Below are positions 9,264 to 39,558 of a DNA stretch of 39,558 nt, piece by piece; position 1 is the first letter of the stretch, and each line of letters opens with the position of its first letter. Source of the stretch: an uncultured Acetatifactor sp. (GTDB lineage Bacteria > Bacillota > Clostridia > Lachnospirales > Lachnospiraceae); NCBI GenBank assembly GCA_964617975.1, contig CAZUAP010000001.1, positions 1 to 39,558 of the forward strand, written 5' to 3'. A program made the translations under genes and the position numbers. A model generated the notes under the pieces. It was not told where the DNA came from, searched no databases, and saw only the letters and a program-made list of their open reading frames with translations.

Positions 9264-9276
9264 GGTATTGTCCTCC

Positions 9277-11061: not shown

Positions 11062-11067
11062 GAAAAA

Positions 11068-11616
11068 TCACATTTTTTCTTTCTGTTCCTCGATCCGATC
11101 CATCGCTTTCTTCAGATGCTTGTTGATGTTCGGAATGCTTGTCCCCAGGATGTCCGCCGCCTCGGTCTGCGTGTGTCCCACGATCTTCACCAGACGATAG
11201 ACCTCGCGTTGGATATCGGTCAGGAACCACAGGATGCGGTCGAGCATCTCCTTTTCGGTCTCGTCCTCAGTTTCCATGTAGGTGCAGGTCTCTGAAAGGA
11301 TGCGGCTCTTGTCCAGCTTGTCCTCATCGCCATCGTCCCCGGCCATGTAGTCAAAGGATAGGTTCCAGTTTGCCGGATACCGCTCTCCGGGATGTTCCGC
11401 CTCCCATCTCTTTTTCTCCGCTTTCTCTGCACCCGTCAGCGGCGGCCGACTGTTCTTGAGGTTGTTGTATACCTCGGCATCGTCCAGAGAGTGCAGGATT
11501 TTGATATCCGCCTCGGTCACACCGTTCTCGCCCGGACGGAGGGTGACGCTTGTGCCGTCATTGAACTGAAATGTGTAAGTGCCTCTCTTGTCCCATTTTG
11601 TCTTCTTGGTTTTCAT
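11068..11616 (-). CDS. Sigma-70 region 4-type HTH regulator / phage sigma-like factor
   Basis: C-terminal LTDIQREVYRL...TQTEAADILGTSIPNINKHLKKA. Start at MKTKKT behind GAAAGGA. Confidence 0.8.
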   Translation of the reverse strand: MKTKKTKWDKRGTYTFQFNDGTSVTLRPGENGVTEADIKILHSLDDAEVYNNLKNSRPPLTGAEKAEKKRWEAEHPGERYPANWNLSFDYMAGDDGDEDKLDKSRILSETCTYMETEDETEKEMLDRILWFLTDIQREVYRLVKIVGHTQTEAADILGTSIPNINKHLKKAMDRIEEQKEKM

Positions 11617-11975
11617 TGATTGTCCTTTCCCCTGATTCTTGGGAAAGGGCAGCAGATACAGATAAAGGCCGGAGTGCCACAGGAGCCGCTCCGACCTTAC
11701 AGCCTGCAAAAGGGTATAAGGAAGAAAGGGTACTCCATATCGCACTTTCGCTGCCGCAGCAGCTTGTCCGATATATGTATCCTTTGCCCTTATACGTAAT
11801 CAGGCATTGAAATATTTTGTTATGTAAAAGCGGTCTGACCGCCTGTTACCTTGTTTGTCCGGCTCCTATCAGGTAGCCTTGGGAGAAGGGAAAATCTGAC
11901 GGTTTCTTTCTACTTCCTACCGAGAAATTCAACCTCTCGTATTCCTCATTTTACTCAGTATTTCTGATGTTCCCA

Positions 11976-14033: not shown

Positions 14034-14040
14034 AAAACAC

Positions 14041-14961
14041 CTACTCTCTGTTCTTATTCAAAATGGGCAACCCCATCTTCTTTAGGAAGTCATTTGCATC
14101 AAATATGGTAATTGAATATGCCACGCCAAGAATGAGCTTGAATGCTCTGTCCGCCTTTTTCCCTCCGAGGCTGTACCCCGCAATGCTTACAAGCTGTTCT
14201 GCTATGAACGGATCTAAAGAAAGCCCGATGCAGATTGCTATCACGGTAGGGAGGGAAGGTTTATTCTCGCCGCTACGCAGCCGGGATATTGTTTTCTCAG
14301 ACAAGCCGGATGTTTCAGCAAGCTGCTCAACGGTAATCTCCCTTTCCTCCATCAACAGTTTCAAAGCATCTCCAAAATCATAGGGTAGATTGCCACCACC
14401 GCCTGTTGCGATCAGCTTTGTCCAGTCTTTGACAGACACCTCTGAAAACTTTCCAGCGTTCTTGATTTCAATTGTAAAACCACCAGGGCGTGCATGCATC
14501 CTATAATGGACGCCAGGGCTCTTTCTATACAAGACACCAGTTCGATATTTACGGGAACGTTCAGCATGGATGCAGTAATCTTCCAGCTTACTGCGAATAC
14601 TATCTTTTATGGAGATCCTTCCTGCAGTTACTTCTATACAATCCGGTGACCGCAGTACCATGTGTCCTTCAGCAAACACATATTTCCCAGTGTCCACACA
14701 TTTGCGGAACTCGGCAGATTCAGCATACCTGTCCAAAAGCTGAACAGGGGAGTATTGCGGTATTCCAACCCTTATTCTGACCGCCGAGCGCGGAGCGGTT
14801 TTTCCTACTCTAATTTTGGTGCCGGGTACTTTTCTCACTTCAACAGCATCCACAGTTTTTACAGCCACTCCACCTCTCGATACTTTCGGTGTCTTTTTCT
14901 TCGCAGATCCTTTTGATGGAGGCGCAATCTTATATCTGCTGCTTTTTCTGCTCTTAGCCAT
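14041..14961 (-). CDS. XRE-family HTH protein resembling the C-terminal half of the neighbouring peptidase
   Basis: ITVEQLAETSGLSEKTISRLRSG...PSLPTVIAICIGL. GKYVFAEGHMVL parallels GAYVFVDSHICL in the neighbour. Confidence 0.8.
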   Translation of the reverse strand: MAKSRKSSRYKIAPPSKGSAKKKTPKVSRGGVAVKTVDAVEVRKVPGTKIRVGKTAPRSAVRIRVGIPQYSPVQLLDRYAESAEFRKCVDTGKYVFAEGHMVLRSPDCIEVTAGRISIKDSIRSKLEDYCIHAERSRKYRTGVLYRKSPGVHYRMHARPGGFTIEIKNAGKFSEVSVKDWTKLIATGGGGNLPYDFGDALKLLMEEREITVEQLAETSGLSEKTISRLRSGENKPSLPTVIAICIGLSLDPFIAEQLVSIAGYSLGGKKADRAFKLILGVAYSITIFDANDFLKKMGLPILNKNRE

Positions 14962-14997
14962 ATTCTTCGCCTCCTTTCCATCTTCGAAAATGTTGTA

Positions 14998-16257
14998 TCA
15001 GATTCCGTTATAGTTCTCCCATCTCCAACGGAGAAATTCTCTATTCGTAAATGATGGAATGACAATCCGAGGTGGAATACTTGCTCCGTAATCCATCCTC
15101 GCCCTGTTTGATAACTCTATGTCGCCATCCGGGGAAATGCGGAGATGCCCAGTGTCAAACAAAGTATGTATATCAACTCGCATTGCGAATCCATTAGCAA
15201 CCGTATCTTCACCATTATACTTAAATGGTTTAATATGAGCGGCCTCCAGTATTTCCGGCATCATCACATTAGTTATGACGCACCGTTCACACGCCTTTAA
15301 CACGTCTTTGCGGAACGTGGCCTGATTTGGTCTGGTGATTCTTGTTTGAATTCTCTTTCTTTCAACCTCGGAAGTCACTTCGCTGGCACGAATCTGATCT
15401 AATGCTTTAAGTAATGACTCGTCCTTTGGCTGTGCGGAAATAATCTCCTCTATTTCGGCAAATATGTTGATGTTAATACGGTACTCTTCTTCCTCACGCC
15501 TTCTTGCATCAGACCTGATCAAATACCCATAGTTGCTCAGGAATAGCAGATACTCTCTTGCAATTCGGAAGTCATTTGCACCTTCGGCACAGTTTGGCCA
15601 ACTGATGAGAGAAATTTCTCCTGCGCGATACCAAAGAATAAAATTCACATAGTCCTGCAATTCAGCTTTTGCCCCGGAGAGAGGGATTATTATACGGACA
15701 AGTTCATCCGGCGTGATATATCCTTGCATCTGGTCAAGTTTTGTCAGTTCGCACATTATTTCTAATAGCAGCTTAAGCGGATGAAGAAGAATTCCCGCAG
15801 AATACCATCGCTTGCACTCCTCCTCACTTTGAATCTGCGGATTAGGCAAACGGAAGGTCTGAATTGTGATAGCGGCAAATTCGGTTTGAGAAATCTCGCG
15901 GTCCGCCACCTTCTGTCCAAATTCCGTCAATTGTATCCGTCCAGATCTATCGTTTGGAATTAAGCCTACCGCCCTCCAATATTGACTGCTGTTTCTTATG
16001 ATATTTCGCTCACCAACACGACCGCCAAGGTTAACCTTGATTGAGTCAGACACATCGTTTGATAATTCGAGCATCTCTTGTGCAAACTCCGGCGAACTGT
16101 ACTTCAAGTTCTGTCCGAGCAACTCCAGTTTTCTCATACGGAAAAGAACGCCTAACAGTATTACAGGATCGTTAAGCCGTTCTGTGCACTGGAGGCTTGC
16201 CCACTTCCATTTATAGTCCTGAAACGGCTTTGATGGTATATAATTCTTCGGGAACAT
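14998..16257 (-). CDS. Restriction endonuclease: N-terminal recognition domain plus C-terminal HNH (type IIS-like)
   Basis: FRKDVLKACERCVIT...LEAAHIKP...NGFAMRVDIHTLFD (HNH_2 pattern). Directly follows two methyltransferase genes. Confidence 0.8.
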   Translation of the reverse strand: MFPKNYIPSKPFQDYKWKWASLQCTERLNDPVILLGVLFRMRKLELLGQNLKYSSPEFAQEMLELSNDVSDSIKVNLGGRVGERNIIRNSSQYWRAVGLIPNDRSGRIQLTEFGQKVADREISQTEFAAITIQTFRLPNPQIQSEEECKRWYSAGILLHPLKLLLEIMCELTKLDQMQGYITPDELVRIIIPLSGAKAELQDYVNFILWYRAGEISLISWPNCAEGANDFRIAREYLLFLSNYGYLIRSDARRREEEEYRININIFAEIEEIISAQPKDESLLKALDQIRASEVTSEVERKRIQTRITRPNQATFRKDVLKACERCVITNVMMPEILEAAHIKPFKYNGEDTVANGFAMRVDIHTLFDTGHLRISPDGDIELSNRARMDYGASIPPRIVIPSFTNREFLRWRWENYNGI

Positions 16258-16260
16258 TGA

Positions 16261-17196
16261 TCATGCCTCCTTGTCTTCTTTATAGGAATTGAACTGTTTC
16301 GCAACTGCATACGCAAGAAGCGGAGGCACTGCGTTTCCTATCTGCCGGTATATTGAGGAATTATTGCCTTCAAACTCATAATCAACGGGAAAGCTTTGCA
16401 CTGAAGCAAGCTCGCGGCATGACATTCTCCTTTTACCGTTAGGGTGCGGTAGGATTACAACTCCTCCACGGCTATCACCTCGTGCAGTAACCGTTGGTGC
16501 TGGCTTTTCTGGATCAAGCAGCCTGTGCCCAATGTATCCGTTGATATTCAACTTATACTTCGAATATGTATGATTAGGAACACCATTCTCCGTATCAGGA
16601 TCTGGAAGGTCTTTCAGGGCTTCTGATACGCTCACCCATATTGGAAGACCATCCTCACCATCTTTGCTGTGTGTCGGTTTTGGAAACTCATATTCCCATG
16701 TAATATCCTTGCGAACACCGATGATGATGACTCTTTGCCGTGTCTGCGGGACACCATAATCAGCGGCGTTGAGAATTCTGTACTGTACCTTGTATCCTAA
16801 ACTCTCAAAATCCGCAAGAATCATCTTGAACACTTCTCCTTTGCCAAGATTTGTCAGCCCTTTGACATTCTCAGCCAGAAAGAATTTTGGCTTCTTATTC
16901 TCTATCACCCGGATAAGCTGTTTATACAACTCATTTCGCTCGTCACCTATATGTCTTTTTGTGTTTGCCACTGAAAATCCCTGGCATGGAAATCCTCCGA
17001 TGACAATGTCACAATCAGGGATATCTTCTGTTGATATGCTATGGATATCCTCAAGCACTATATGATCTCCCATATTTTTTTGATATGTATGAACCGCATC
17101 CTCATACAAATCATTCGCCCATATGACATCGTGTCCGGCCATTTTAAACCCGAGATCTAAGCCGCCGGCACCACTGAATAATGACACTACCTTCAT
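16261..17196 (-). CDS. DNA (cytosine-5)-methyltransferase, M2
   Basis: FSGAGG, GGFPCQ, ENVKG, QTRQR, RQIGNAVPP. Confidence 0.97.
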   Translation of the reverse strand: MKVVSLFSGAGGLDLGFKMAGHDVIWANDLYEDAVHTYQKNMGDHIVLEDIHSISTEDIPDCDIVIGGFPCQGFSVANTKRHIGDERNELYKQLIRVIENKKPKFFLAENVKGLTNLGKGEVFKMILADFESLGYKVQYRILNAADYGVPQTRQRVIIIGVRKDITWEYEFPKPTHSKDGEDGLPIWVSVSEALKDLPDPDTENGVPNHTYSKYKLNINGYIGHRLLDPEKPAPTVTARGDSRGGVVILPHPNGKRRMSCRELASVQSFPVDYEFEGNNSSIYRQIGNAVPPLLAYAVAKQFNSYKEDKEA

Positions 17197-18134
17197 AACT
17201 TCTCTTCCTTTTCGATCCGCATCAGATCTTGTCCAAGCAATTTTGCAAACAATACTGGGACGGCATTACCTATTTGCCTATAGCACGATCCGCGGACTCC
17301 ACAAAATTCGAAATCTTCAGGAAAAGTCTGAACGGACGCACTCTCTCGAACGGTTAGGCGTCTTTTTCCGTTATAATGTGGAATGGCGCAAACTCCACCG
17401 CCACCATTACCCCTTGCAAGAATAGTAGGAGAGGGCTTATCAGGATCAGTCTTGCGATGAGCTGTATAATCGCGGTACTCCACTTTGTACTTCGAATACT
17501 CATGATTCAAAATATTATTCGGTAAGTCTGGATCTGGAAAGTGACCTATTGCCTCCGAAATGCTTACCCATCGCTTTAAGCCGCCTTTTCCTTCCTTGTT
17601 GTGTGTCGGTATTGGGAATCTAAACAGCATTTCCTTGCCAAGATCGTGCCTCTGTCCAACGATGATTACCCTCTGTCTTGTCTCTGGAACTCCGTAATCT
17701 GCCATATTAACTAAATGCAAATCAGTGTAATATCCTGCGGCCTCAAAATCTGAAATGATTTGTTTTATGGCCTCGCCTTTACCAAGGGAGAGAATACCCT
17801 TAACGTTTTCTGCGATGAAGAAATAGGGCTGTTTCTCATGAATGACTTCATAGAAGAATTTATATAGGGCATTTCTTTCGTCATCAAGCATTCTAAACCT
17901 ATTCGCCTGACTGAATCCCTGACAAGGGAATCCGCCAACGACTACATCTGCTGTCGGTAATTCTGAAACATTGATGTGTTTTATATCATCAAGAACAATA
18001 TGAGTCCCGATGTTCTTCCTATATGTTTCTACTGCGTTTGCATCTATATCATTTGCCCATATCACAGTGTTTCCTGCTTGAATCAACCCAAGGTCGAGTC
18101 CACCAGCACCGCTAAATAAAGATAGTATTTTCAT
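17193..18134 (-). CDS. DNA (cytosine-5)-methyltransferase, M1
   Basis: FSGAGG, GGFPCQ, ENVKG, ETRQR, RQIGNAVP. ATGA overlap with M2. Confidence 0.97.
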   Translation of the reverse strand: MKILSLFSGAGGLDLGLIQAGNTVIWANDIDANAVETYRKNIGTHIVLDDIKHINVSELPTADVVVGGFPCQGFSQANRFRMLDDERNALYKFFYEVIHEKQPYFFIAENVKGILSLGKGEAIKQIISDFEAAGYYTDLHLVNMADYGVPETRQRVIIVGQRHDLGKEMLFRFPIPTHNKEGKGGLKRWVSISEAIGHFPDPDLPNNILNHEYSKYKVEYRDYTAHRKTDPDKPSPTILARGNGGGGVCAIPHYNGKRRLTVRESASVQTFPEDFEFCGVRGSCYRQIGNAVPVLFAKLLGQDLMRIEKEEKL

Positions 18135-27926: not shown

Positions 27927-30900
27927 TTAGCGACCTCCTTCATTGATTACTTCATCGTAGGTTTCGGCATAACGTTCCACCCAGACCTTGGCGGGTACAT
28001 CATAAGGACGGAAATGAGTGTTTTTAACATCTCTGCCGATATCCATGTAAACAGCAGTTTTGCCACGAAGAGCTTTTGCTTCGCTTTCCGCAACAAGGAT
28101 GTCCATTGACTCCTCATCAAGGCCATATGCGATGCGCTTGTCAAACATAGAATCATAGCGATCCCCAAGCATCAGTTCGATACTACGAATACTCTCACCC
28201 CATACGATGCTGTTCACCCCATATTTGGGACCATTTGCAATGATTTTCTGGAGCATTTCAATCGGACTCAATTCTCCGCCACGGTCTTCCTCATAAATCC
28301 GTCCAGTTCGCAATCTTCTCGCACGATTGATGCCAAAGAACATCAGGAAGATTCTCTCGCTAGCAGGAAGTGTGCCCTCAGAACGCCCAAGAACTGTTTC
28401 ATACAAACTGGATATCAGTTCTTCAGCGTCTCCAACTTTGGCCACTTTAACCTGCTGAGGGAATTGAGACTCAAGGAAATCAAAGTCACACTCTCCATCA
28501 GCCAACTCATCAGCAAAGAGGTCTACAATATACACTAAGGCATTGGCCTTATCTGCATTTGTATGAAGTTCCTCATAAAGAACACTCATGGCAGAAAGCT
28601 CGAACAAACTAAGCGCCATCTTTTCATCTTTGCTGACAACCAGAAGATTATCCCGATCCTTTGTCCGGAGTTCCGGCATGAAGATGCTCTTCTTTCCAAA
28701 CCCTTGACCCAACAGCAACCCATATCCGTCTTTGGATGTTCCGAGAGGCTCAACGCTATCAGAACCCTCCAAAATCAACTTATTAAAACAGTTATGGATG
28801 TTATCTTCTGCATTTGTCAGAAGAACTCTAGTCTGCTGATCTTCATACAGCGGCGCGACATCAGGATCTGTGAAGTATGCATCCAGTCGAGTAAGAAGAT
28901 CCAATCGTTCGTCCTCATTAATGTAACTCACCTGGAAGAAGTTGTTGGCAGATTCAACACCGCCGCCACCATTATAGATTGCAGCACCGGCGGGCTGATT
29001 CTGAAGGGTACGGATTCCGGCGTTATCAGCATTCAGAATCGATGCCGCTCCATCTTCAGATCCTTTTACAGCAATACGAATAGCCATCTGGCTGAAGTAT
29101 GCTTCAAGTCCAGCACAGTTATGGAAATCCTGGCATGCAAGGATAACATGTATACCCATTGCACGACCCTGCATAACGAGCTTGTTTAGACAGGAGAGGC
29201 ATTCACTACTAATGGAGTCGCTCTCTCCTTTACTTCTGAAGAGTTCCTGAACCTCATCGAATATGAGCAGAAGTTTCGGAACCTTGGGAACGTCAGACAA
29301 CTTCACATAACCGTTGATATCGGATACACCATACCGCGTGAAATGCTTTGTTCTGGTTTCCAACTCAGTGCACAATTCCTTGAGAACATTTAAGCCGAAT
29401 TCGCGCTCACTATTAATCGCAACAACCCTAAGAGACGGCAAGCGATACCGAGTGTAGGCGCTGAATTCAACGCCCTCCTTGAAATCGAGCAGATACATCT
29501 GCACCTCATCTGGAGAATAGCTAATTAGCGTACTCATGATGAGCGTATGAAGTAGGGTGGACTTACCAGCACCAGTCTGGCCGGCAATCAAAGCGTGGTG
29601 CTCAGTGCTTCCGCCACCTCTTCCCAACACCATCTTCACGATGGTGTTTGCACCTTTGATACCGATAGGAATGGCAATTTCTTCGTGATTCCCGGTGAAC
29701 CAGTTATTGCTGTCGTAGATATCCTCTCGGTACATGCTATCAAAGTGTTCAACTTTGAGCTGCATATGCTCGATAACGCTGCTGATTAACGGTATAATCT
29801 TGTTCTTCCGTTCAATTACATCCTGCATATCATCAAGCTGCAAGAACAGACGATCCTTATCCGAACCAACAAGCATCAACCTTTTTCCTGATGCCTTCGT
29901 CTCAACAAGGCTTTGCGCAATTTCTGCAACAAGAGTCCCGTTTCTCTGCTTGAGTTTCTCAAGTTCCTCATCATTGGCACAGATGAGTACACAGACTCCC
30001 AAAGACGCGCTATTTCTTACAATTGCATGCAGATCCTTCAGTGCGGTATCATTAAAGCCTACAGGGAAATCGGTAATAGCCAGTGCTCTGATAACCTCTT
30101 TTTTCAGGCGGCTGATTTGATCTCCGCCGTAAGCCTGGGTCATATTTTCGAGACGTTGCCGCAAAGTAGCAATGGCATTCTCGATGTCTTTTTCTTTGCT
30201 CCAAATTTTAGTATCGATGATTCGAGCAGAATTTGGGCCCTCCGCGAGTTTCGGAATATCCGGAAAACTCGCTCCAAGCTCAAGCGGATCAATCATCGTC
30301 GCCTCAAGTTTTCCTGCTGGGAACGACATAAACAGCTTCATAAGCAGAGGCTGAATCAGTCCCTGAACATAGTTTCTCTCCGCAGGAGAATATCTCATCA
30401 AAAGCGAAATGCCATCTGAAAGTCTCTGCGAATAAGGAATTGTAACCACATATTCGCCAGATTGTTTTATACCAACATCGCTCGTTTGCAACTCCACAGC
30501 CTGAACAACCGCCATGTCATCCTGCGATTTATTAGGGATGATAAGACCAATATCACCCAACATCACATAATCCGGAACCTCGGACGGGCACTCGTAGTTA
30601 ACAGCGTTAAATCTGGATGATTTAATTTCTTGCTGATACGCATGAACCGTTGTTTTATTAAAGCCCTCGCTAATATCCGTTCGACGCGCATCGCAAATAT
30701 TTTTATGCTTGGCCTCAAATCGACGTTCAGCCTGAGTGTCACGATCAATTTGCTCTGTCCGCGCCTTGTCGAGCTTGTCATTTCTTGTTCGTTCTGACTC
30801 TGCAATCTGACAATTACAAAGTGTCCTATATGCCTGGACTTTCGAACTGATTGCAGCAGTAACCTCTCTCTGCTTACTTTCTACAGAGCTCATACCTCCA

Positions 30901-31484
30901 CGTGCCGCACCTATGGCACCATCAGCACCGCTTTTTGGCATGTTGTTGATGAGGTTATTACAAGCATTAACAACATTATTAACTGTGTTTCTTCTAGCCT
31001 CAGTATTCTTAATGTTGTTTTCGCATTCGCTCGTGTATTTCTGCCTTTCATCCTCGCACTGTTTCCTTGCGCTTGATGTTACAGAGTCGTAAATCTGCTG
31101 GCTACTGGTCTTTGCGTCCTCCCACTCTTTTCGAGCCCCTGTTAATTCCCCGCGAAAGGCATCAGTGTGGCTGCGCAAGGCAAACATAGCAGCCATAGCC
31201 TGCCCATGTCCGGCAGGAATGTTTTTCCAGTTGTTCCAAGGTTTCGCCACATCGTCTGCACTAACCTCCGGCTGTTTTGAAACGGATACGAAATCAAGCA
31301 AAATCCCTTGATCATCATTTTGCTTGACAACAACATCAACGATTGCACCCTGATCAACCGCTGCTTGTTCAGCTCCGTTCAAAACCCTGCCGATTACACC
31401 TTGCTCCAATTCAACAATCAGATTGCCTTGGTAGATGTTGATGATACGTCCGGAGCATTTTTTTCCTACACTGTAATCTCCCAT
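27927..31484 (-). CDS. FtsK/SpoIIIE (EssC/EccC-like) ATPase with N-terminal S1-like domain and coiled coil
   Basis: HALIAGQTGAGKS, YLLDFKEGVEF, IFDEVQELF, QGRAMGIHVILACQ. Degenerate flanking domains (MIDPLELG...SLGVCVL; NGPKYGVNSIVW). No TM helix seen. Confidence 0.9.
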   Translation of the reverse strand: MGDYSVGKKCSGRIINIYQGNLIVELEQGVIGRVLNGAEQAAVDQGAIVDVVVKQNDDQGILLDFVSVSKQPEVSADDVAKPWNNWKNIPAGHGQAMAAMFALRSHTDAFRGELTGARKEWEDAKTSSQQIYDSVTSSARKQCEDERQKYTSECENNIKNTEARRNTVNNVVNACNNLINNMPKSGADGAIGAARGGMSSVESKQREVTAAISSKVQAYRTLCNCQIAESERTRNDKLDKARTEQIDRDTQAERRFEAKHKNICDARRTDISEGFNKTTVHAYQQEIKSSRFNAVNYECPSEVPDYVMLGDIGLIIPNKSQDDMAVVQAVELQTSDVGIKQSGEYVVTIPYSQRLSDGISLLMRYSPAERNYVQGLIQPLLMKLFMSFPAGKLEATMIDPLELGASFPDIPKLAEGPNSARIIDTKIWSKEKDIENAIATLRQRLENMTQAYGGDQISRLKKEVIRALAITDFPVGFNDTALKDLHAIVRNSASLGVCVLICANDEELEKLKQRNGTLVAEIAQSLVETKASGKRLMLVGSDKDRLFLQLDDMQDVIERKNKIIPLISSVIEHMQLKVEHFDSMYREDIYDSNNWFTGNHEEIAIPIGIKGANTIVKMVLGRGGGSTEHHALIAGQTGAGKSTLLHTLIMSTLISYSPDEVQMYLLDFKEGVEFSAYTRYRLPSLRVVAINSEREFGLNVLKELCTELETRTKHFTRYGVSDINGYVKLSDVPKVPKLLLIFDEVQELFRSKGESDSISSECLSCLNKLVMQGRAMGIHVILACQDFHNCAGLEAYFSQMAIRIAVKGSEDGAASILNADNAGIRTLQNQPAGAAIYNGGGGVESANNFFQVSYINEDERLDLLTRLDAYFTDPDVAPLYEDQQTRVLLTNAEDNIHNCFNKLILEGSDSVEPLGTSKDGYGLLLGQGFGKKSIFMPELRTKDRDNLLVVSKDEKMALSLFELSAMSVLYEELHTNADKANALVYIVDLFADELADGECDFDFLESQFPQQVKVAKVGDAEELISSLYETVLGRSEGTLPASERIFLMFFGINRARRLRTGRIYEEDRGGELSPIEMLQKIIANGPKYGVNSIVWGESIRSIELMLGDRYDSMFDKRIAYGLDEESMDILVAESEAKALRGKTAVYMDIGRDVKNTHFRPYDVPAKVWVERYAETYDEVINEGGR

Positions 31485-31548: not shown

Positions 31549-31767
31549 TCATCCGCTTTCATCTATCTGCTGCATGGCTTCCTCCGGTGTTGACATCCTG
31601 ATATTACCCTCGTTGTCCTCTAAAATAAGAAGAGGCAATCCAACAAAAGACATTTCCCCGTCAGCGAATATAGGTTCGTAGCATTTAAAGCCACGCCACT
31701 CACAAAGGTACTCCGCCGTTTCATAGCCTTGGCTCTTTGCAAATTTATCTATTGATGCTTGTACCAT
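31549..31767 (-). CDS. Candidate cognate immunity protein
   Basis: 72-aa acidic ORF overlapping the toxin 3' end. RBS AAGGAG. Confidence 0.65.
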   Translation of the reverse strand: MVQASIDKFAKSQGYETAEYLCEWRGFKCYEPIFADGEMSFVGLPLLILEDNEGNIRMSTPEEAMQQIDESG

Positions 31768-33595
31768 TGTCTACTCCTTTCATAATGTGATTTACCACGC
31801 TAAAATCAAAATCCATATTGTCTATGCGTAACAACTGGGGGACACAAGGAGTCGTTCCGCCGAACAGTGAAGTGTCTTCATACTTGACTCTGGACAAATA
31901 ATCCAGGACAGCAAAATCTCCAATCCATTCACTTTTTTCTCCTGGTCCTCGTTGGTTATCCTTGATTCTTAGGAGTCCGTTTGGTGCCCTGTCAATATTT
32001 ACTATATGACCACTATGTCCACGCCCTTTCCACGCAAACTGGATAGTGTATCGATTTCCAGGCTTTACAACTTCATTTACAAAATCCAAGTAGTCTTCTG
32101 GTGTCCGTCGGTTGTTATCGTAAATATAGTCGGGATGTTTTCCCGTTTTAGGATCAATCCACGCCATTCTGGGATCGTGGGATAGTCGTTCGAGTGCCGA
32201 TCCTTTAGTACATGGCAACACCTGGACATTGTATCCTCTTTCACGAGCCTCGAAAGTAACTACACAAGATTGACAGTTGATCGAATAGCTATAATCCTTT
32301 CCATAGTTGGGATTTACATGGCCAGAATCAGCCTGTTCAAATGTCATGTTTTCACCAGGGGATACATTTGCTATTGGCGGGCGACGATTATTAATTTTTT
32401 CAATTAACTCATCATAATTTGGATCAGTATACAATCCGTTTGGCTGCCCCTGTATATCCTTCTCCAATTCTGCTGAGTAGTGTTTTCGTAATTCACTTAT
32501 CGTTGCATCTAGTGCTGAAATTGAAACCACACCACGATCCAACAAATTATCTCTGTATACTTCAAGAATGTTATTGATGTATCGTTCACCCATCTGTCGC
32601 TTTTCTACAGGCGAAAGTTTTAGGACTTTGACATGCTCTTTTATTGCCTCTGCCTCTACTTGATTAGAGTAATTCTGTGCAACGGCCATCAGCTGGCTTC
32701 TTAACATGTTTAGTTCTGAAATCTTTTGCTCAGCAGACAAGACACTAGATTCCACTATTCGATTCACCAAGGTATCATATGCTTCCTGTAATGTTTCGCT
32801 TTTAGGAAACCCAATGCCAAGAGCACCTTGTGCTGTAGCGGCGGAAAGCGAATCAATTTGACCAACATTTTGATCACTTGCGGTACGCAACATTAACCCA
32901 GCATCTTCATTTGATATCTCTCCCATAGCTAAGGCAGATGCCAGTCCTCCACCTATCGGTGTTGTTATTCCGCCACCAGATGTCAATCCCTCTGAACCAC
33001 CACCTTGATAGCTTTGTACTTGCCCCGCAGTATCTAGTGTTGCAAATCCGCCACCTCTCCAGCCAGAATCATTTCCGCCCTCACTTCCAACAGCAACATG
33101 GTCGGGAGTGGCATCAATCCCCATGCTGCGAAGAAGTGCCACTCTTGCATCTTCAGCCTCGTTTAAGCGTTGAGCCATACCCTCAGTGAGTGCAGCAGAG
33201 TCTGCACCAAATGCTCCTGCCCTTAGTCTGCGCAACTTCTCCAAGTTGGATCTTTCGACCTGGTTGTGCCTTTCTATCTCTTGAACATGGGCGCTTTTCT
33301 GCTGCCTGACACGATCCGCATCTCCACGAGCGGATGACAACGCTCGTTGACTAGCCGCCAGCTGGTTCTCAGCCATACTCAGCTGTGCTCTGGCCTGCTC
33401 CACATCACCTACTGGGTTTCCTTCTTCGTCAGTCTCGCTGGCGGCAGCAAGCTGCCTTCTAGCTGCGGCAACTCTACTATTGGACGAAGCTACTCTAGCT
33501 TGACAACTTTGTACCTTTTGATCGGCCTCTTTGCCTTGCTCGATGAGTGCCTCGGCTTTTTTTCCAATTTCTTTAAAACTTTTAGCCATTACCAC
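31745..33595 (-). CDS. Polymorphic toxin: helical N-terminus, Gly-rich linker, C-terminal papain-fold (Gln deamidase/Tox-PL-like) domain
   Basis: NPNY...INCQSCVVTFEARERGYNV, WKGRGHSGHIVN and KDNQ give a C441/H530/D546 triad. Alternative ATG start at 33589. Confidence 0.8.
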   Translation of the reverse strand: MVMAKSFKEIGKKAEALIEQGKEADQKVQSCQARVASSNSRVAAARRQLAAASETDEEGNPVGDVEQARAQLSMAENQLAASQRALSSARGDADRVRQQKSAHVQEIERHNQVERSNLEKLRRLRAGAFGADSAALTEGMAQRLNEAEDARVALLRSMGIDATPDHVAVGSEGGNDSGWRGGGFATLDTAGQVQSYQGGGSEGLTSGGGITTPIGGGLASALAMGEISNEDAGLMLRTASDQNVGQIDSLSAATAQGALGIGFPKSETLQEAYDTLVNRIVESSVLSAEQKISELNMLRSQLMAVAQNYSNQVEAEAIKEHVKVLKLSPVEKRQMGERYINNILEVYRDNLLDRGVVSISALDATISELRKHYSAELEKDIQGQPNGLYTDPNYDELIEKINNRRPPIANVSPGENMTFEQADSGHVNPNYGKDYSYSINCQSCVVTFEARERGYNVQVLPCTKGSALERLSHDPRMAWIDPKTGKHPDYIYDNNRRTPEDYLDFVNEVVKPGNRYTIQFAWKGRGHSGHIVNIDRAPNGLLRIKDNQRGPGEKSEWIGDFAVLDYLSRVKYEDTSLFGGTTPCVPQLLRIDNMDFDFSVVNHIMKGVDNGTSINR

Positions 33596-33619: not shown

Positions 33620-34111
33620 TCAGCCAAATATTCCGCTTAAGTTGCTTTTTAGTGATTCTATCTGTTGTTTTGTCTCATCAACAACGCCTTCCGCATCCGA
33701 AATGATACCTTCATATTCTCCGGCGCTCCCTTCCAATTTGGAACGTCCAGCCTCGGCTGCATCGCGTCCAATGTCAGAAATACCACCGGCTTGTTCTAGT
33801 TTGCTGATACCAGACCTGACATTTTCCAACTCGCCCTCAGTGGTCTCTCTGATTTGCTCTCCTTGTTGCTCTATCTCTTGCCCAGCTGACTCCACCTGCT
33901 CGCTAAACGCACTGTCAAAGCTACTTTGATAGGAACGTCCGGTTTCACTGATTGCCTGAACATCCTCTTCATCTTGCAGTTCAATGCTCTCAAGAACAGC
34001 GTTAATCTGATCGGCCTGTTCTGTCATTTCAGATCCAAGTTCAGTAGTCTCTCGACTATTCTCCTGCATCTCTTTTACACCCTCACGGTTTTTTTCTCTG
34101 AAACTTCCCAT
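33620..34111 (-). CDS. Acidic all-helical protein, candidate toxin partner or secretion substrate
   Basis: 163 aa from MGSFREK (RBS AAAGGAG). E/Q/S-rich amphipathic helices. No WxG motif. Confidence 0.8.
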   Translation of the reverse strand: MGSFREKNREGVKEMQENSRETTELGSEMTEQADQINAVLESIELQDEEDVQAISETGRSYQSSFDSAFSEQVESAGQEIEQQGEQIRETTEGELENVRSGISKLEQAGGISDIGRDAAEAGRSKLEGSAGEYEGIISDAEGVVDETKQQIESLKSNLSGIFG

Positions 34112-34124
34112 AAGTAGTCTCCTT

Positions 34125-37064
34125 TCAGTTTTGTTTAAATGCTTCAACACCATGCATCTTGATATAGGTGCTAAGATCCTCGTTTAACTCTTTGGACAGC
34201 AACGATAGTTTCTCGATCTCTTTATCGATTTTCTTAATATCTTTAGTTGTCCCTACCGCTTGAATCAGACTTTTGTAAAGCTGTAATGTCCGGTCGCACA
34301 TTTGTGTTTGCAACAAAGTTATCTTTATTAGTTCGGATTCTGGAGCACCGAATCGTGTCCATCGTCCATTTTTAAGTCTCTCAAGTGCAAAGATCCAATT
34401 GCCTACGGTGTTTATAATATCTAAAGCTTCGTGAATCTTTGATTTGTCCGCAAGCAGACTTTCCCGACTGGATTGAAGCGCTTCAAGTTGATCGTACCTC
34501 ACCTGTTTATCTTCATCATTAAGCTGCACTTTTCCAAGTTCCACTCGTTCCAAATAAGAGTACAGTTTATTGATTTTTTCAGCTTGTGCTGCAACTGAGT
34601 TCAGCCAGTACTCACATGGCGCGATTCTGCTTTCTATGTCAGACAGCAGATGGAAGTATTTACTTCCTATAATTTTAATACTCTTGAGGTTCTCATCCTG
34701 ATATGTATCTCGATCAGCAAGGGCATACCTTAAATCTGCATCGTTCTTTGAAGATACCATTGCTTCTTTCTCAGCCTGGTTCTCTATCTCGCCCCACCAT
34801 TCTTTGATTCTCATGGTAAAGGGGCGCATCAGTTTCTCATAAAAAATCAGAGCTTCGCCCACGGCAAATGTTGACATCTGTTCAAGCTGCATTGCGCTTG
34901 CTGCCATAGTGCTTCCCAAAAGCGATCTGTCATCTGCAGATGTGATTCTCAAGCCAATCTTAAGACCAGTATTTTTTAATACTTCCTGTGCCATCACCGT
35001 GGGTAGCTGGTCTGCAATTACGATTCCTTCCTTCAAAGCTCGTACTTCGGCAAGCATCTTTACAACAAATGCTGTAGCTGCTTGCTTTGGATCTGCATCT
35101 GCACCTGTTTGTTCTTCTGATTCTGGTCCAATTAAGTTGTGTGCTTCTTCTATAAAAATAACGTGTCTTACATCACCCTCAAAACGGGGATTAACTTTCA
35201 ACGTCTCTCTGATAAGTGAGCAGAGCATCAGCGTCAAGAAATTTGCAGGGCCAGTGCCCATAGATTCAAGCTCAATAACAGCCGGCACTTCAAGCCATTT
35301 CTCAGGTGCGAAAGATGATTCGGGAACATCAAATACATCCCCCATTTCTCTTCGCAGAAGACTACCGATTCTCACCTTAAGCGCCGACTCAAGGTTTCCT
35401 CTGACCTCATCACTATATTGTGTTGATTTCAACTCCTGTTCCAAGCGCCGATAAAGCATAGACATAGTCGGCAAAGCACGTTTTTTGTCACTATCCTCTT
35501 GCTTCTCATCTCCGGTGTAAACATGCTCTGGAATCCAGCCAAGTTCTCTGTAAACAGCTTCGATTGCTGTATCAAGCAAGAATGGCATAGGCGGTTCCAA
35601 AGGAAATGCACCCTCAAACACAGAGCACAATCTCCTAATATGCTCTGCAACAAGAGTCCCCTTTGGCATCTCAAAAGGATTTATATGCAACGGAAAACTC
35701 ATGTCTGCATTCGGAGAGAACAGATACATATCCTTCATACCTGGGTCATTAGCCAGTGCACGATATTCCTGCTTTGCCGGTTCTAAGACAAGGAAGGGAA
35801 TTCCGTGGTCTTTCCAAAGCGATGAAGTGATATGATGCATTGTGTTGGTTTTACCTGATCCAGGTACACCGGAAACAAATGCATGTTTTGGTAAAAGCGA
35901 GAGCGGGAAGAATACATCATACCCATTATTGTCTTTTCCCAAAAACAAAGAGCCATTCTTGTCAACAGCTGCGGGAGCTGTTTCCTTTGCCATCTGAATA
36001 ATCTCGCCATCATACAAGGCTGGCAAACGGAAAAATGGTGCTATCTCCTCTAGCGAAAAGAGAGTTGGTAAATAATTCAGATTAATCGTAGCAGTGTCTT
36101 CTCTGCAAACAATTAATCCTGGACGTCCTTTCTTAACCACCATTCTTTCCCTCATATTTTCCAGACCATCAAACTCACCGTCCAGAAAGCAAACAGGATC
36201 AAAGTTGGAAGAAAAAGTGGCTATGTTATATTTACCTTTCAAAAGGCTCTCAGAGCCTACCGCATCAAGTATTGAAACTGCGTCCTCTTTCCCATTGGCA
36301 AGCACCAGCACATTAGCAATGAAATGAGGAGATGAGTCATACTTCTCAATCAAGTCCTCATAACTATCCAATACATCTTTACCGTCGTAATCTCGCTTTG
36401 AACTACCGCTTCTATCATCCTGTCTTTTCCGCAGAATGCTCATAGGTTTTCTTAACGATTCTCTTAAGGAAACACTCTTTTCAACAGGGTATAGGTCAAC
36501 ACGATACAATGCAGTATGATTTAATGCCTCCATCATCTTGCACATATTATATAGGCGACCATCTTCATTCATTTCCCATTCGCGCAACATATAATAGTCT
36601 TCACCCTCGCCGTTTCCTGCGGGGAGGAGTGTTTCTGTTTTTGTAAGCAATGCGCAAGTGTTGAAAATCGGTGAGTCTATTCCACTTCCAGCTAAAACAT
36701 TATTGATATTACAAGAATCATTTCCTGTCCGGCTGTGCTTAATCTTGGATTCCAACTTATAAAAATCCGATAATGGGGATGCGTTTATCAAAGCCGGTAC
36801 ATTATCCATAGCATCGGCCTTACCCCGTATCATCAAGTATATTTGCAATCTATGTCCAGGAGTGTCCTTTGTTTTGTCTTCCGGAGCAACATACAAGTAA
36901 AACAGATGGTATGACAAACCAGAGACAATACCTTTCCGGTTTAATTGCCTCAAAAAAGCTATATGCTTTTCAATAACTCCATCGACACCGTTTCCTTCAA
37001 GAGAAGCATATTTATTTAGCGTCAAATCAGGAAGCTGCGTCAGTCTATACCATAATTCTGCCAT
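34125..37064 (-). CDS. HerA/DUF87-like (FtsK-HerA superfamily) ATPase
   Basis: HAFVSGVPGSGKT, LVLEPAKQEY, LHINPF, IFIEEAHN, EVRALKEGIVIADQLP. C-terminal coiled coil. Confidence 0.9.
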   Translation of the reverse strand: MAELWYRLTQLPDLTLNKYASLEGNGVDGVIEKHIAFLRQLNRKGIVSGLSYHLFYLYVAPEDKTKDTPGHRLQIYLMIRGKADAMDNVPALINASPLSDFYKLESKIKHSRTGNDSCNINNVLAGSGIDSPIFNTCALLTKTETLLPAGNGEGEDYYMLREWEMNEDGRLYNMCKMMEALNHTALYRVDLYPVEKSVSLRESLRKPMSILRKRQDDRSGSSKRDYDGKDVLDSYEDLIEKYDSSPHFIANVLVLANGKEDAVSILDAVGSESLLKGKYNIATFSSNFDPVCFLDGEFDGLENMRERMVVKKGRPGLIVCREDTATINLNYLPTLFSLEEIAPFFRLPALYDGEIIQMAKETAPAAVDKNGSLFLGKDNNGYDVFFPLSLLPKHAFVSGVPGSGKTNTMHHITSSLWKDHGIPFLVLEPAKQEYRALANDPGMKDMYLFSPNADMSFPLHINPFEMPKGTLVAEHIRRLCSVFEGAFPLEPPMPFLLDTAIEAVYRELGWIPEHVYTGDEKQEDSDKKRALPTMSMLYRRLEQELKSTQYSDEVRGNLESALKVRIGSLLRREMGDVFDVPESSFAPEKWLEVPAVIELESMGTGPANFLTLMLCSLIRETLKVNPRFEGDVRHVIFIEEAHNLIGPESEEQTGADADPKQAATAFVVKMLAEVRALKEGIVIADQLPTVMAQEVLKNTGLKIGLRITSADDRSLLGSTMAASAMQLEQMSTFAVGEALIFYEKLMRPFTMRIKEWWGEIENQAEKEAMVSSKNDADLRYALADRDTYQDENLKSIKIIGSKYFHLLSDIESRIAPCEYWLNSVAAQAEKINKLYSYLERVELGKVQLNDEDKQVRYDQLEALQSSRESLLADKSKIHEALDIINTVGNWIFALERLKNGRWTRFGAPESELIKITLLQTQMCDRTLQLYKSLIQAVGTTKDIKKIDKEIEKLSLLSKELNEDLSTYIKMHGVEAFKQN

Positions 37065-37083
37065 AACTGCACCTCACACGTGT

Positions 37084-37389
37084 CTATTTACCATCTATTT
37101 CATCTGATGATTCCATGATCATCTCTATACCTTCTGACAGCCCATTTATTTCACCTATCATCTTTTTGGTGCTCTCATTGTTTTGAAAGTACGCAATTAA
37201 CGCAAGAAATGTTGTCCAGGACATTTCTCGCTTTCCTGTCTCAATAGAACTATATGTTTGGCGAGATATACCTATTTTTTCAGCAATATCTTCTTGCGAG
37301 ATGCGTGCTTTGGCTCTCAAAACCGGCAACTCTTTTCTAAGCAACTCAACAATCGTATTTCTAAGGTAGATACTGTTCTCGATACTCAA
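37084..37389 (-). CDS. XRE-family HTH transcriptional regulator
   Basis: LRAKARISQEDIAEKIGISRQTYSSIETGKR. TTG start behind GGAGGT; alternative ATG at 37407. Confidence 0.92.
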   Translation of the reverse strand: MSIENSIYLRNTIVELLRKELPVLRAKARISQEDIAEKIGISRQTYSSIETGKREMSWTTFLALIAYFQNNESTKKMIGEINGLSEGIEMIMESSDEIDGK

Positions 37390-37526
37390 TTTAATACCTC
37401 CTAGCATTTCGATTTACACAGACATTATTTTTCTCGCCTACAATACCAACAGATAAAGTGCTGTTTGACTGATAGCCTTTTCCTGATAAATCGTCTCAAA
37501 CCACTCCCTCTGGGCACTTGTTTTCC

Positions 37527-37546
37527 TAGAGTGCTTTACTCTACGA
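37527..37546. repeat. Left inverted repeat / tyrosine-recombinase core-type site
   Basis: TAGAGTGCTTTACTCTACGA is the exact reverse complement of 38894-38913. Confidence 0.9.
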
Positions 37547-37570
37547 GCTACTTCGACCGATTACCCTTTT

Positions 37571-37599
37571 ATTATACACATTGTCGCGCTGTTTGTCAA
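37571..37599 (-). promoter_or_regulatory. Consensus sigma-A promoter inside the invertible segment, pointing into the operon
   Basis: Minus strand TTGACA (37599-37594), 17 bp, TATAAT (37576-37571). Confidence 0.9.
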
Positions 37600-37706
37600 G
37601 ATGTCGCTGGTTTCGACTTTGTAAATTATTTCACAAGTCCTTTGTATAATGTTACTAAAGGCTGCCTCCCTTTCGTCACTATAGTTCTCGGAAGGAGGTG
37701 AGAACC

Positions 37707-38828
37707 ATGCCGAAACAAGGCAAAAATATCTATCTGAGGAAGGATGGACGATGGGAAGGCAGATATATCAAGGAGCGAGTCAGCGGAAAAGCACGGTACG
37801 GCTACGTTTTTGGCAAGTCCTACGAGGAGGCTTTGAACAAACTGGTACAGGCAACCTGCATGTCTACCGACACCCAAAACCAACCCTCGATAACATTTGG
37901 GTCCGTTTCATCAGAGTGGCTTGCTGTCCAGAGTCCAGAACTAAAGGCATCAAGTGTCGCACGGTACAGAAATCTGCTGAATTCATACATTCTCCCACAG
38001 TTTTCTACGAGCATAATTCAGGAAATTCAGCGTAGCGAGATAGTCGTATTCAGCAGGAATCTGCTAACATCTGGCGGAGCGCACTCCCAGGGATTAGCTC
38101 CAAAAACCGTCAACAGCGCGCTTTCCGTTCTAAAGAATGTATTTACCTACGCATCTAACGAAAAGGGCATACTCGTGGCCGATATCAAAGACATCTCCGT
38201 AAAACAGCCACAAAAGCCCATGCGTATCCTCAGTAAAGGGGAGCAAAAAGTACTGAGCGAATATCTGTGTTCAGACCCTACACCGTGTCACATAGGAATT
38301 CTTCTGTCTCTTTACACTGGCTTGAGGATAGGAGAAGTATGCGCACTCCGATGGCAGGATATCCGTGTAGAGGAGCAGTACCTCTATATCCATCAGACGA
38401 TGCAGAGGATACAAGTCGATGGTGACGGAAGAAAGCGTACCGAGGTGGTTATATTGCCGCCTAAGAGTGACTGCTCCATACGAAGGATTCCAATCCCGGA
38501 TGAGGTGCTGCGTCTGTTGAAGACCGTGCAGAGGCAGGATGACGCATTTCTGCTTACGGGACTGGTACACAGTTATATTGAACCTCGATGTCTGGAAAAC
38601 CGCTTCAAGGCAGTCACCAAAGAATGCGGACTGAAAGGCGTAAACTATCATGCACTTCGCCACACCTTTGCGACCAGATGTGTTGAATTGGGATTCGACA
38701 TTAAGAGCCTGAGCGAAATTCTGGGACATGCAAGCGTAAACATCACTCTCAATCGTTATGTCCATCCGTCTATGGATCTCAAGCAACGGAACATGAACCT
38801 GCTCTCTGAGCTCCTGACCACAAAATAA
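37707..38828 (+). CDS. Tyrosine recombinase (integrase family), probable invertase
   Basis: TGLRIGE (R), PKS (K), HALRH (HxxR), LGH...RY (H, Y). N-terminal arm-binding-like RKDGRWEGRY. RBS AAGGAGGTG. Confidence 0.95.
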   Translation: MPKQGKNIYLRKDGRWEGRYIKERVSGKARYGYVFGKSYEEALNKLVQATCMSTDTQNQPSITFGSVSSEWLAVQSPELKASSVARYRNLLNSYILPQFSTSIIQEIQRSEIVVFSRNLLTSGGAHSQGLAPKTVNSALSVLKNVFTYASNEKGILVADIKDISVKQPQKPMRILSKGEQKVLSEYLCSDPTPCHIGILLSLYTGLRIGEVCALRWQDIRVEEQYLYIHQTMQRIQVDGDGRKRTEVVILPPKSDCSIRRIPIPDEVLRLLKTVQRQDDAFLLTGLVHSYIEPRCLENRFKAVTKECGLKGVNYHALRHTFATRCVELGFDIKSLSEILGHASVNITLNRYVHPSMDLKQRNMNLLSELLTTK

Positions 38829-38847
38829 GCCGTCAATTTCAGCCGTC

Positions 38848-38894
38848 AAAAAGCCGCCAGAACCCCACCGAATCAGGGGTTGTGGCGGTCTTTT
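38848..38894 (+). terminator. Hairpin plus T-run after the recombinase gene, inside the invertible segment
   Basis: CCGCCA.AACCCC / GGGGTT.TGGCGG stem followed by TCTTTT. Confidence 0.6.
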
Positions 38895-38913
38895 CGTAGA
38901 GTAAAGCACTCTA
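38894..38913. repeat. Right inverted repeat / core-type site
   Basis: TTTCGTAGAGT-AAAGC-ACTCTACGAAA: 11-bp dyad arms around an asymmetric spacer. Confidence 0.9.
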
Positions 38914-39012
38914 CGAAATTTTTTACACTTTTTTGTCCGAAAGCCTACCTGCACGTCTGTCTATAAATCACTCTGAAAGCCCGAAAAGTCAAGTCATACT
39001 CACAGAGTACCG

Positions 39013-39063
39013 AAAATAAAAAATCGCCCGGAGCCAGCCTCAATGAAGAGGTCGGTTCCGGGC
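39013..39063 (-). terminator. Probable terminator insulating the switch from transcription arriving from the right
   Basis: GCCCGGAGCC / GGTTCCGGGC stem with a T-rich tail on the minus strand. Confidence 0.5.
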
Positions 39064-39070
39064 TTCTTGC

Positions 39071-39224
39071 TGTTGTCATACAATTTAGTTTTGCCTGTGC
39101 CTGTTGTCGGAGGGTGTTGTCAAACGGTCTTCTGCTGTTGCTGTTTTCTTTATGGGTGTTGTCACTTTCTCTGTTGCTGTTGTCACACCCGACCACACTG
39201 TTGCCGTTGTGCATGTGGTAGTTG
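39071..39224. repeat. Phased TGTTG(TC) repeats with 21-bp period
   Basis: TGTTG at 39115, 39136, 39157, 39178 and 39199, AGTTG at 39220, plus out-of-phase copies at 39071, 39102 and 39172. Confidence 0.75.
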
Positions 39225-39329
39225 AGCATAAAGAAAGAGCTACCGGAGAGTCCCTAATCTCAGAAAGCCCTTGATTTCAAGCCATTCTGCCGTTCTGACA
39301 ACGGCATTTATTTGTATCAATTCTTGGGT

Positions 39330-39542
39330 TTACATTTCTGCGAATATGCCAGCCAGTACCCATTCCGGATTTTTCTGTATGTATTCCGTGTAGTGTGTGA
39401 CCTGCGTTTCGTAGCTGGTTTCCTGCTCCTCGGAATCTGTACTGACACGGCAGTAGGCTGCGACGCGGAGCTTTTTCTGTTCGGATTGTTTTACTGTGTT
39501 TCCGACCTGCCTTCTGGCCGGGATGACCATTACGTTCCCCAT
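39330..39542 (-). pseudogene. 5' fragment of a large serine recombinase, truncated after GIFA
   Basis: [19 protein letters not shown]...WVLAGIFA then EM* where D(E/D)GISG is expected. TAATG overlap with an upstream gene outside the window. Confidence 0.88.
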
Positions 39543-39558
39543 TAGATTGCCTCGCTTT

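What the first reader, a model, noticed from the sequence alone, without database searches (positions are those of the whole stretch)
37522..38918. Self-contained invertible promoter switch (recombinase inside its own inverted repeats) upstream of a 19-kb operon
Seen: a perfect 20-bp inverted repeat (37527-37546 / 38894-38913; 24/25 when extended) brackets a tyrosine recombinase gene. Each copy is a dyad (TAGAGT-N5-ACTCTA) with an asymmetric spacer, and the spacers are inverted relative to each other (GCTTT vs AAAGC). A perfect TTGACA-17-TATAAT promoter sits 24 bp inside the left repeat and fires outward into the XRE gene and operon. A terminator-like hairpin sits just inside the right repeat. 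Established: tyrosine recombinases acting on inverted core sites invert the enclosed DNA, as in the fimS switch. Inference: this is the ON state. Flipping would aim the promoter at DNA with no convincing ORF and place the terminator next to the operon (OFF), making the whole system phase-variable.
Basis: partly seen in the sequence, partly recalled or inferred. Interest (0 to 1): 0.92.

Follow-up and report, generated by a model that had tools for sequence, protein, structure and literature searches.

The report
Self-flipping switch controlling a toxin operon
A 1.4-kb DNA segment that carries its own recombinase gene and an outward-facing consensus promoter occurs in both orientations in closely related bacterial sequences, and it likely flips itself to turn a neighbouring 19-kb operon with a swappable-tip (likely antibacterial) toxin gene on and off.

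Summary
Observation confirmed. The repeats are two inverted tyrosine-recombinase core sites with matched 7-bp overlaps, enclosing an intact integrase-type recombinase, a conserved outward promoter and a two-way terminator-like hairpin. Homologous loci occur in both orientations (15 as here, 13 flipped, 10 unscored of 38), with breakpoints at the repeats. Two near-identical pairs are in opposite states, and one public run holds the flipped junction while its contigs break exactly at the repeat edges. Transcriptional control and recombinase activity are inferred; no RNA reads were found to test them. The layout is Hin-like with a tyrosine enzyme: a new variant of a known kind. This scan has already noted the wider switch family on other DNA; nine literature searches found no description.

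The parts
37522..37548 (.). Left (operon-side) recombination site: arm, 7-bp overlap 37532-37538, arm; its outer arm is the imperfect one
37571..37599 (-). Outward sigma-A-type promoter, 12 of 12 consensus, 17-bp spacer; conserved in 20 of 20 cassettes (function inferred)
37645..37650 (+). Second, divergent -10-like hexamer kept in many cassettes; candidate weak promoter of the recombinase (inferred)
37707..38828 (+). Tyrosine recombinase, 373 aa, integrase type with N-terminal extension, SAM-like and catalytic domains; catalytic residues intact
38849..38894 (.). Terminator-like hairpin with U-rich runs on both strands, abutting the right site; present in 19 of 19 cassettes folded
38892..38918 (.). 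Right recombination site, perfect dyad, 7-bp overlap 38902-38908 inverted relative to the left site
38914..39338 (.). Conserved non-coding flank, end of a larger mobile element; target of the promoter in the OFF state
37084..37407 (-). XRE/HTH_3 regulator, first gene of the operon (likely true start TTG at 37389 behind an AGGAGG)
34125..37064 (-). HerA-like ATPase, 979 aa (DUF87; weak ser_rich_anae_1 match below cutoff)
33620..34153 (-). Acidic helical protein, 177 aa, no family
31745..33595 (-). Polymorphic toxin, 616 aa: conserved N-terminal ~200 aa, C-terminal papain-fold Tox-PL1 domain
31549..31767 (-). 72-aa protein overlapping the toxin stop; candidate immunity protein (inferred from position)
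27927..31484 (-). FtsK/EssC-like ATPase, 1185 aa, no predicted transmembrane helix
18774..27924 (-). Rest of the operon: small membrane protein, two unknowns, radical-SAM 4Fe-4S protein, Ser/Thr kinase, unknown, FHA protein, ClpB-like AAA ATPase, YccF, two zinc-ribbon proteins

Best explanation
The segment between 37532 and 38908 occurs in both orientations in related sequences and is likely a self-contained invertible promoter switch that its own tyrosine recombinase would flip, so that the 19-kb toxin operon is likely transcribed only in the orientation found in this window. Shown: two core sites with matched inverted overlaps, an intact recombinase inside, both orientations with breakpoints at the sites, and a conserved promoter and hairpin at fixed ends. 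From established recombinase chemistry: inverted sites with identical overlaps give inversion, not excision. Inferred: ON = the promoter fires across the left site into XRE-HerA-toxin-FtsK; OFF = the promoter faces the non-coding element end and the hairpin stops recombinase read-through before the operon. Inferred: a subpopulation switches a costly interbacterial toxin/conflict system on or off; lineages are repeatedly locked ON by loss of the recombinase; cassettes and cargo operons are reassorted at the shared site.
For: Both orientations: of 38 loci, 15 ON, 13 OFF, 10 unscored. The same operon (XRE/HerA 96-99% aa) is OFF in L002, L028, L041 and ON in L029, L031; BLAST blocks change strand exactly at 37522-37546 and 38893-38918. 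Opposite-state pairs: L028/L029 cassette 99.1%, operon side 96.5% over 4.6 kb; L026/L038 cassette 98.4%, flanks 96-97%. The two overlaps are exact reverse complements in 19 of 19 loci where both sites were detected (35 examined), across 5 different 7-mers. The imperfect outer arm stays on the XRE side in 8 of 8 ON and 7 of 9 OFF loci. Run X2: contigs end exactly at 37527, 38894 and 38913, and a loose end before 38894 matches the reverse of the first 10 cassette letters (8 of 10 identical to the window), i.e. the flipped junction. Promoter 10 of 12 or better with a 17-bp spacer in 20 of 20 cassettes, against at most 10 (2 cases) in control windows. Broken recombinase in 11 of 15 ON against at most 3 of 13 OFF loci, Fisher p 0.021; lineages collapsed 9 of 13 vs 1 of 11, p 0.0045.
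Against: No read-level or experimental proof of inversion in a clone: X2 is a shallow (2-7x) contig set, the ON junction contig was not among the rows shown, and two strains each fixed in one state are not excluded. X3's break is explained by a second cassette sharing the flank, and no strand-changing joint was listed. Promoter activity and operon dependence are untested. Two loci (L002, L033) have a 10-of-12 promoter-like match in the XRE-side flank, so leaky OFF expression is possible. 10 of 37 more distant homologues lack a clear repeat. The loci are kin and assemblies report the majority state, so the p-values overstate. The genome has one other distant tyrosine recombinase match; action in trans is not excluded.
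Confidence: 0.83

Rival explanations
1. Minimal mobile element: the repeats are the ends of an integrase-only cassette that inserts at a fixed site in either orientation and is then static; its promoter activates neighbours as an IS would.
For: Closest solved structures are conjugative-transposon-type Int (6EN0 series; Tn1549 identity recalled). Cassettes are mosaic with respect to their flanks, which shows movement between loci.
Against: Identical inverted overlaps favour inversion and do not allow excision (established chemistry). No empty site seen: both loci found through the site-proximal flank alone carried a cassette (L084, L086), a weak test. Cassettes 98-99% identical in opposite states, and the branch pattern in X2. 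No second copy in the genome.
Confidence: 0.07
2. The segment inverts, but the operon has its own promoter or is governed by the XRE protein, so orientation only tunes expression or mainly regulates the recombinase.
For: An XRE gene heads most cargo operons. Promoter-like 10-of-12 matches in the XRE-side flank of 2 of 20 loci. No expression data.
Against: In the window the best match in the first 150 bp of that flank is 7 of 12, while the cassette promoter is perfect and conserved. The ON-specific loss of the recombinase implies that the two states differ in effect.
Confidence: 0.07
3. The inversion is driven in trans by another recombinase or by homologous recombination, and the enclosed gene has another job, such as integrating the larger element.
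For: A degenerate dyad lies at the element end (39321). Recombinases acting in trans are known for other switches (recalled).
Against: That dyad class occurs about 1.15 times per 40 kb by chance and its outer arm is not conserved. The gene lies between such repeats in 27 of 37 distant homologues. Only ~25 bp of homology between the sites.
Confidence: 0.03

Closest known systems
Salmonella H segment (Hin, hix sites)
   Same: About 1-kb promoter-bearing segment inverted between 26-bp sites (passages of PMC3798978); recombinase gene inside the segment (recalled).
   Different: Hin is a serine invertase needing Fis and an enhancer. Here the enzyme is an integrase-type tyrosine recombinase with 7-bp overlaps, the segment also carries a terminator-like hairpin, and the target is a toxin operon.
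E. coli fimS with FimB/FimE and related tyrosine-recombinase promoter switches
   Same: Tyrosine recombinase inverts a promoter between inverted repeats (listing and abstract start of PMC6083910; details recalled).
   Different: The recombinase genes lie outside a short segment and are ~200-aa enzymes (recalled). Here a 373-aa enzyme lies inside a 1.38-kb segment; the NCBIfam tyrosine-type DNA invertase model matches only at E 3e-4, far below cutoff.
Inverton group 139 / invertase group 35 of gut Clostridia (Jin et al. 2025, PMC11892184)
   Same: Clostridial invertons tied to a nearby tyrosine recombinase/integrase; one example has 26-bp repeats; read-level flipping shown (sections 8, 14 and passages).
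   Different: The two examples in the text enclose only ~200-230 bp and the recombinases are classed as neighbouring, non-regulatable genes. The repeat motif is in a supplement that could not be read, so kinship of motif or enzyme is untested.
Polymorphic toxin systems with Tox-PL1, and type VII secretion (Zhang et al. 2012 PMC3482391; Garrett et al. 2024 PMC11217815)
   Same: Conserved N-terminus with exchangeable C-terminal toxin domains, Tox-PL1 at the C-terminus, FtsK/HerA-type ATPase nearby, kinase and FHA partners (passages).
   Different: No WXG100 or LXG Pfam match and no transmembrane helix in the FtsK protein; extra HerA, ClpB-like and radical-SAM genes; no mention of phase variation in the held text of PMC3482391 (0 hits for two terms).

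Membership tests
Tyrosine recombinases | Phage_integrase domain with R-K-H-R-H-Y catalytic set | tested here: met
   PF00589 E 3e-24; R207 K253 H315 R318 H341 Y351
Invertible promoter switch (inverton) | Inverted recombination sites with matched overlaps | tested here: met
   19 of 19 loci with both sites detected, 5 spacer types
Invertible promoter switch (inverton) | Both orientations exist, breakpoints at the repeats | tested here: met
Invertible promoter switch (inverton) | Promoter inside the segment facing outward | tested here: met
   Consensus and conservation only, 20 of 20
Invertible promoter switch (inverton) | Target expression follows orientation; cognate enzyme flips it | not testable with these tools
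   0 reads laid from two RNA runs, no test
Hin/hix H segment | Serine invertase | tested here: not met
   Tyrosine recombinase
Hin/hix H segment | Recombinase gene inside the inverted segment | tested here: met
   37707-38828 lies between the sites; position of hin recalled
fimS/FimBE-type switch | Recombinase genes outside a short invertible segment | tested here: not met
   Gene inside a 1377-bp segment; fim layout recalled
Jin 2025 inverton group 139 | Short inverton beside, not around, the recombinase | tested here: not met
   Examples ~200-230 bp vs 1.38 kb
Jin 2025 inverton group 139 | Group repeat motif and invertase group 35 sequence | not testable with these tools
   Supplement unreadable
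Polymorphic toxin | Conserved N-terminus with varied C-terminal toxin domains | tested here: met
   15 C-terminal clusters among the best 120 of 174 homologues; PF15644, PF10263, PF03496, PF14414/PF12639/PF13930
Polymorphic toxin | Adjacent immunity gene and toxicity | tested here: inconclusive
   72-aa ORF overlaps the toxin stop, no family match
Type VII secretion system | Membrane-bound EccC/EssC ATPase | tested here: not met
   FtsK domain present, EssC model far below cutoff, no hydrophobic helix in a simple hydropathy scan
Type VII secretion system | WXG100 protein | tested here: inconclusive
   No Pfam match; small helical proteins present, not folded

The most novel reading that the evidence does not exclude
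These switches are interchangeable parts: the integrase also recombines the shared core sites between elements (natural cassette exchange), plugging different switch cassettes onto different toxin and conflict operons. Flipping is biased to OFF, so constitutive toxin producers arise again and again by killing the recombinase while ON. The controlled operon is an undescribed polymorphic-toxin delivery system built on soluble FtsK and HerA motors.
Probability: 0.3. Interest if true: 0.85.

Novelty: new variant of a known kind. Interest (0 to 1): 0.64.

Why it matters
Promoter inversion is well known in Bacteroidota and enterobacteria and mostly governs surface structures. This is a Hin-like, self-contained switch built from an integrase-type enzyme in Clostridia-like bacteria, common enough to have a match in 42 of 300 family genomes, and here it fronts a polymorphic toxin operon. 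It makes testable whether interbacterial weapons are bet-hedged, and why the ON state keeps getting locked. A 1.4-kb cassette holding enzyme, sites, promoter and terminator, with naturally varied 7-bp overlaps, is also a ready genetic-memory part for Clostridia.

Tried and rejected
RNA: no RNA holder listed; two RNA runs gave 0 reads, no test of expression. Contig runs X1, X3, X4: no strand-changing joint; X3's break at the right site is explained by another cassette end sharing the flank and was not counted as inversion. Viral contigs: no relative of the recombinase and no exact site match. Plasmid and phage collections: only distant matches (11 and 7 records, under 50% identity), not followed up. 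Empty-site search with the right flank: 5 of 268 genus genomes matched, 2 near the site (both carry a flipped cassette) and 3 only at the distal end; 0 of 400 and 0 of 400 further genomes, so the test is weak. Rfam: nothing in 36900-39558. PADLOC: domain-level matches only, no whole system assigned. Atlas search of the 177-aa protein: only its own unnamed cluster. A first reading that L006/L007/L042 carry a promoter deletion was wrong: they keep promoter and sites and have an open 319-aa frame lacking the first ~60 residues; they were still counted as broken, which is conservative. The dyad at 39321 as a third site: at chance frequency, rejected. Candidate arm-type repeats (CGTCA-like, 78 and 64 bp inside the right site) recur but were not tested against a background. 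Jiang et al. 2019 was not held, seen only in a reference list. No structure prediction was run.

Full report
Observation. The 20-bp repeat is perfect, unique in the assembly, and one of only 2 perfect inverted pairs of 18 bp or more at 100-5000 bp spacing in 2.13 Mb. It encloses a 373-aa tyrosine recombinase with all six catalytic residues, a 12-of-12 promoter on the minus strand 24 bp inside the left repeat, and a hairpin of -27.9 kcal/mol (z -5.4; 0 of 200 shuffles as stable) with U-rich runs on both strands. Sixteen co-directional ORFs follow over 18.6 kb with gaps of -34 to +82 bp.

The sites are recombination cores. In 35 loci examined (34 of the 38 fetched plus the window), both sites were detected in 19; the others end at contig edges, have lost a site or escaped the pattern. 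In 19 of 19 the two 7-bp overlaps are exact reverse complements although five different 7-mers occur. Matched overlaps in inverted orientation are what tyrosine recombinases need for inversion (established knowledge). One further locus, L030, has a one-base mismatch between its overlaps.

Both orientations exist. Of 38 loci from genome and metagenome collections (the labelled ones mostly Lachnospiraceae and other Clostridia MAGs), the XRE gene lies divergent from the recombinase as in the window in 15, downstream of it in 13, and 10 could not be scored. The window's own operon (XRE and HerA 96-99% identical) is flipped in L002, L028, L041 and as here in L029, L031; BLAST blocks change strand exactly at the repeats. 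L028/L029 (cassette 99.1%) and L026/L038 (98.4%; flanks 96-97%) are near-identical elements in opposite states. Two more loci found through the flank alone are flipped. The imperfect outer arm stays beside the XRE gene in 8 of 8 ON and 7 of 9 OFF loci, as crossover within the core predicts. In run X2, which holds a cassette about 90-95% like the window's, contigs end exactly at 37527, 38894 and 38913, and a contig carries before 38894 the reverse of the first ten cassette letters. My inference is that this is the branch pattern of an assembly graph holding both states. Depth is 2-7x, the ON junction contig was not among the rows shown, and mixed strains are possible. X1, X3 and X4 gave no such evidence.

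Promoter and hairpin are selected features. The outward promoter scores 10 of 12 or better with a 17-bp spacer in 20 of 20 cassettes (10 perfect), mostly 38-40 bp from the overlap, while cassettes are only ~70% identical overall; control windows reach 10 in 2 cases and otherwise 7-9. The hairpin folds at -18 to -28 kcal/mol in 19 of 19. Flipped, the promoter faces a conserved non-coding flank (no Rfam match, no ORF with a family) and the hairpin lies between recombinase and operon. Expression could not be tested.

The family is wide. 42 of 300 genomes drawn from the family match the enzyme at E 1e-60 or better. Among 37 more distant loci (29 best, 8; 34-57% identity), 27 have a bracketing repeat of score 16 or more (0 of 740 shuffled pairs), 22 of these with an outward promoter of 10 of 12 or better; 10 lack a clear repeat. 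Seven earlier notes of this scan describe the same layout on other DNA beside surface, capsule or resistance genes. My reading was set before that look-up.

What is switched. The operon encodes XRE, a HerA-like ATPase, a papain-fold Tox-PL1 protein, an FtsK/EssC-like ATPase without predicted membrane helix, a radical-SAM protein, kinase, FHA, ClpB-like ATPase, YccF and zinc ribbons. The toxin is polymorphic: the first ~197 residues are 92-96% identical in L029 and L031 while the C-termini differ, and the best 120 of 174 homologues fall into 15 C-terminal clusters, with papain, SprT-like protease, nuclease and ADP-ribosyltransferase Pfam labels. Related switches front other operons of the same flavour: HerA or FtsK with Hsp70/GrpE, vWA-PP2C-kinase, TerD repeats, JAB/ThiF, zinc ribbons (94 selected ORFs scanned). 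It works like a polymorphic toxin locus (PMC3482391, passages) but fails a defining test of type VII secretion (PMC11217815, passages). Target and export route are unknown; interbacterial conflict is my inference.

Two unexpected patterns. First, mosaicism at the site. Against L041 and L039, the window matches L041 at 115 vs 3 informative positions in the operon-side flank but L039 at 391 vs 29 in the cassette. L036 follows L039 in the flank (107 vs 5) and L038 in the cassette (475 vs 9). L002 follows the window in both flanks (136 vs 4, 149 vs 15) and L003 in the cassette (303 vs 71). The change of partner falls at the site, within about 100 bp on the cassette side because that end is conserved. 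Enzyme-driven exchange is the simplest reading, but homologous recombination in the conserved ends is not excluded, and the right-flank signal for the window is weak (35 vs 11 and 26 vs 16). Second, locking ON. The recombinase has a stop, frameshift or truncation in 11 of 15 ON loci, at different positions, while 10 of 13 OFF loci are full length and the other 3 (one lineage) have an open frame without the N-terminal ~60 residues. Counting those 3 as broken, p is 0.021; with lineages collapsed 9 of 13 vs 1 of 11, p 0.0045; adding the window (ON, intact), p 0.012. The test was suggested by the data, and kin are not independent. It implies that the states differ in effect, and fits either OFF-biased flipping or selection to stay ON.

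Comparison and novelty. The layout is that of the Salmonella H segment (PMC3798978, passages; position of hin recalled) and the chemistry that of fimS; recombinases inside invertible regions are not new in principle (PMC9881135, passage: encoded near or inside). The nearest solved structure is a 317-residue Int (6EN0, E 2e-15). The closest Clostridial report is group 139 of PMC11892184 (abstract, sections 8 and 14, passages), whose text examples are short and have the enzyme outside; its supplement could not be read and may bear on novelty. PMC10028968 (passages) has no matching description. Nine full-text searches found no paper on a self-contained integrase switch in Clostridia or on a phase-variable polymorphic toxin operon of this kind; most subscription papers, including Jiang et al. 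2019, are outside the library. Verdict: a real inverton, a new variant of a known kind; confidence 0.83 in the switch model; interest 0.64.

Noticed in passing
window 38914-39338: Conserved ~425-bp end of a larger mobile element with repeated short motifs and a sharp boundary near 39338 in 12 of 15 loci; the outside sequence differs by locus and a GA dinucleotide sits at the junction, as recalled for TnpX-like serine recombinase elements.
   Followed up: partly
window 39330-39542 (-): Serine recombinase ORF cut after 70 aa by that element end, which supplies the stop codon; no remainder found in the assembly with a related C-terminal fragment as query.
   Followed up: partly
window 12132-18134 (-): Two C5 cytosine methyltransferases, an HNH nuclease, an XRE protein and a 633-aa unknown: likely a restriction-modification block, 639 bp beyond the operon end.
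   Followed up: no
window 271-11745 (-): Higher-GC (53-59%) phage-like replication block: SNF2 helicase, VRR-NUC, VapE, DNA polymerase A, Enc34 ssDNA-binding protein, sigma-70 r4; DUF2800 is split in two ORFs (9277-9729, 9726-10403).
   Followed up: no
L006, L007, L042: Natural short variant: recombinase lacks the N-terminal ~60 residues yet sits between matched sites with its promoter, in front of XRE, IrrE-like peptidase and many zinc-ribbon genes.
   Followed up: partly
L044/L045 7150-7760; L008 near 7015; L030 5785-5811: Other ways of being stuck ON: IS-type insertion replacing the right site, truncation with loss of the right site, and a mismatch between the two overlaps.
   Followed up: partly
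L004, L027, L032, L047, L010, L026, L035: Cargo behind related switches includes TerD repeats with a P-type ATPase, a vWA-PP2C-kinase set, tandem vWA genes, JAB/ThiF and Hsp70/GrpE with FtsK- or TrwB-like ATPases.
   Followed up: no
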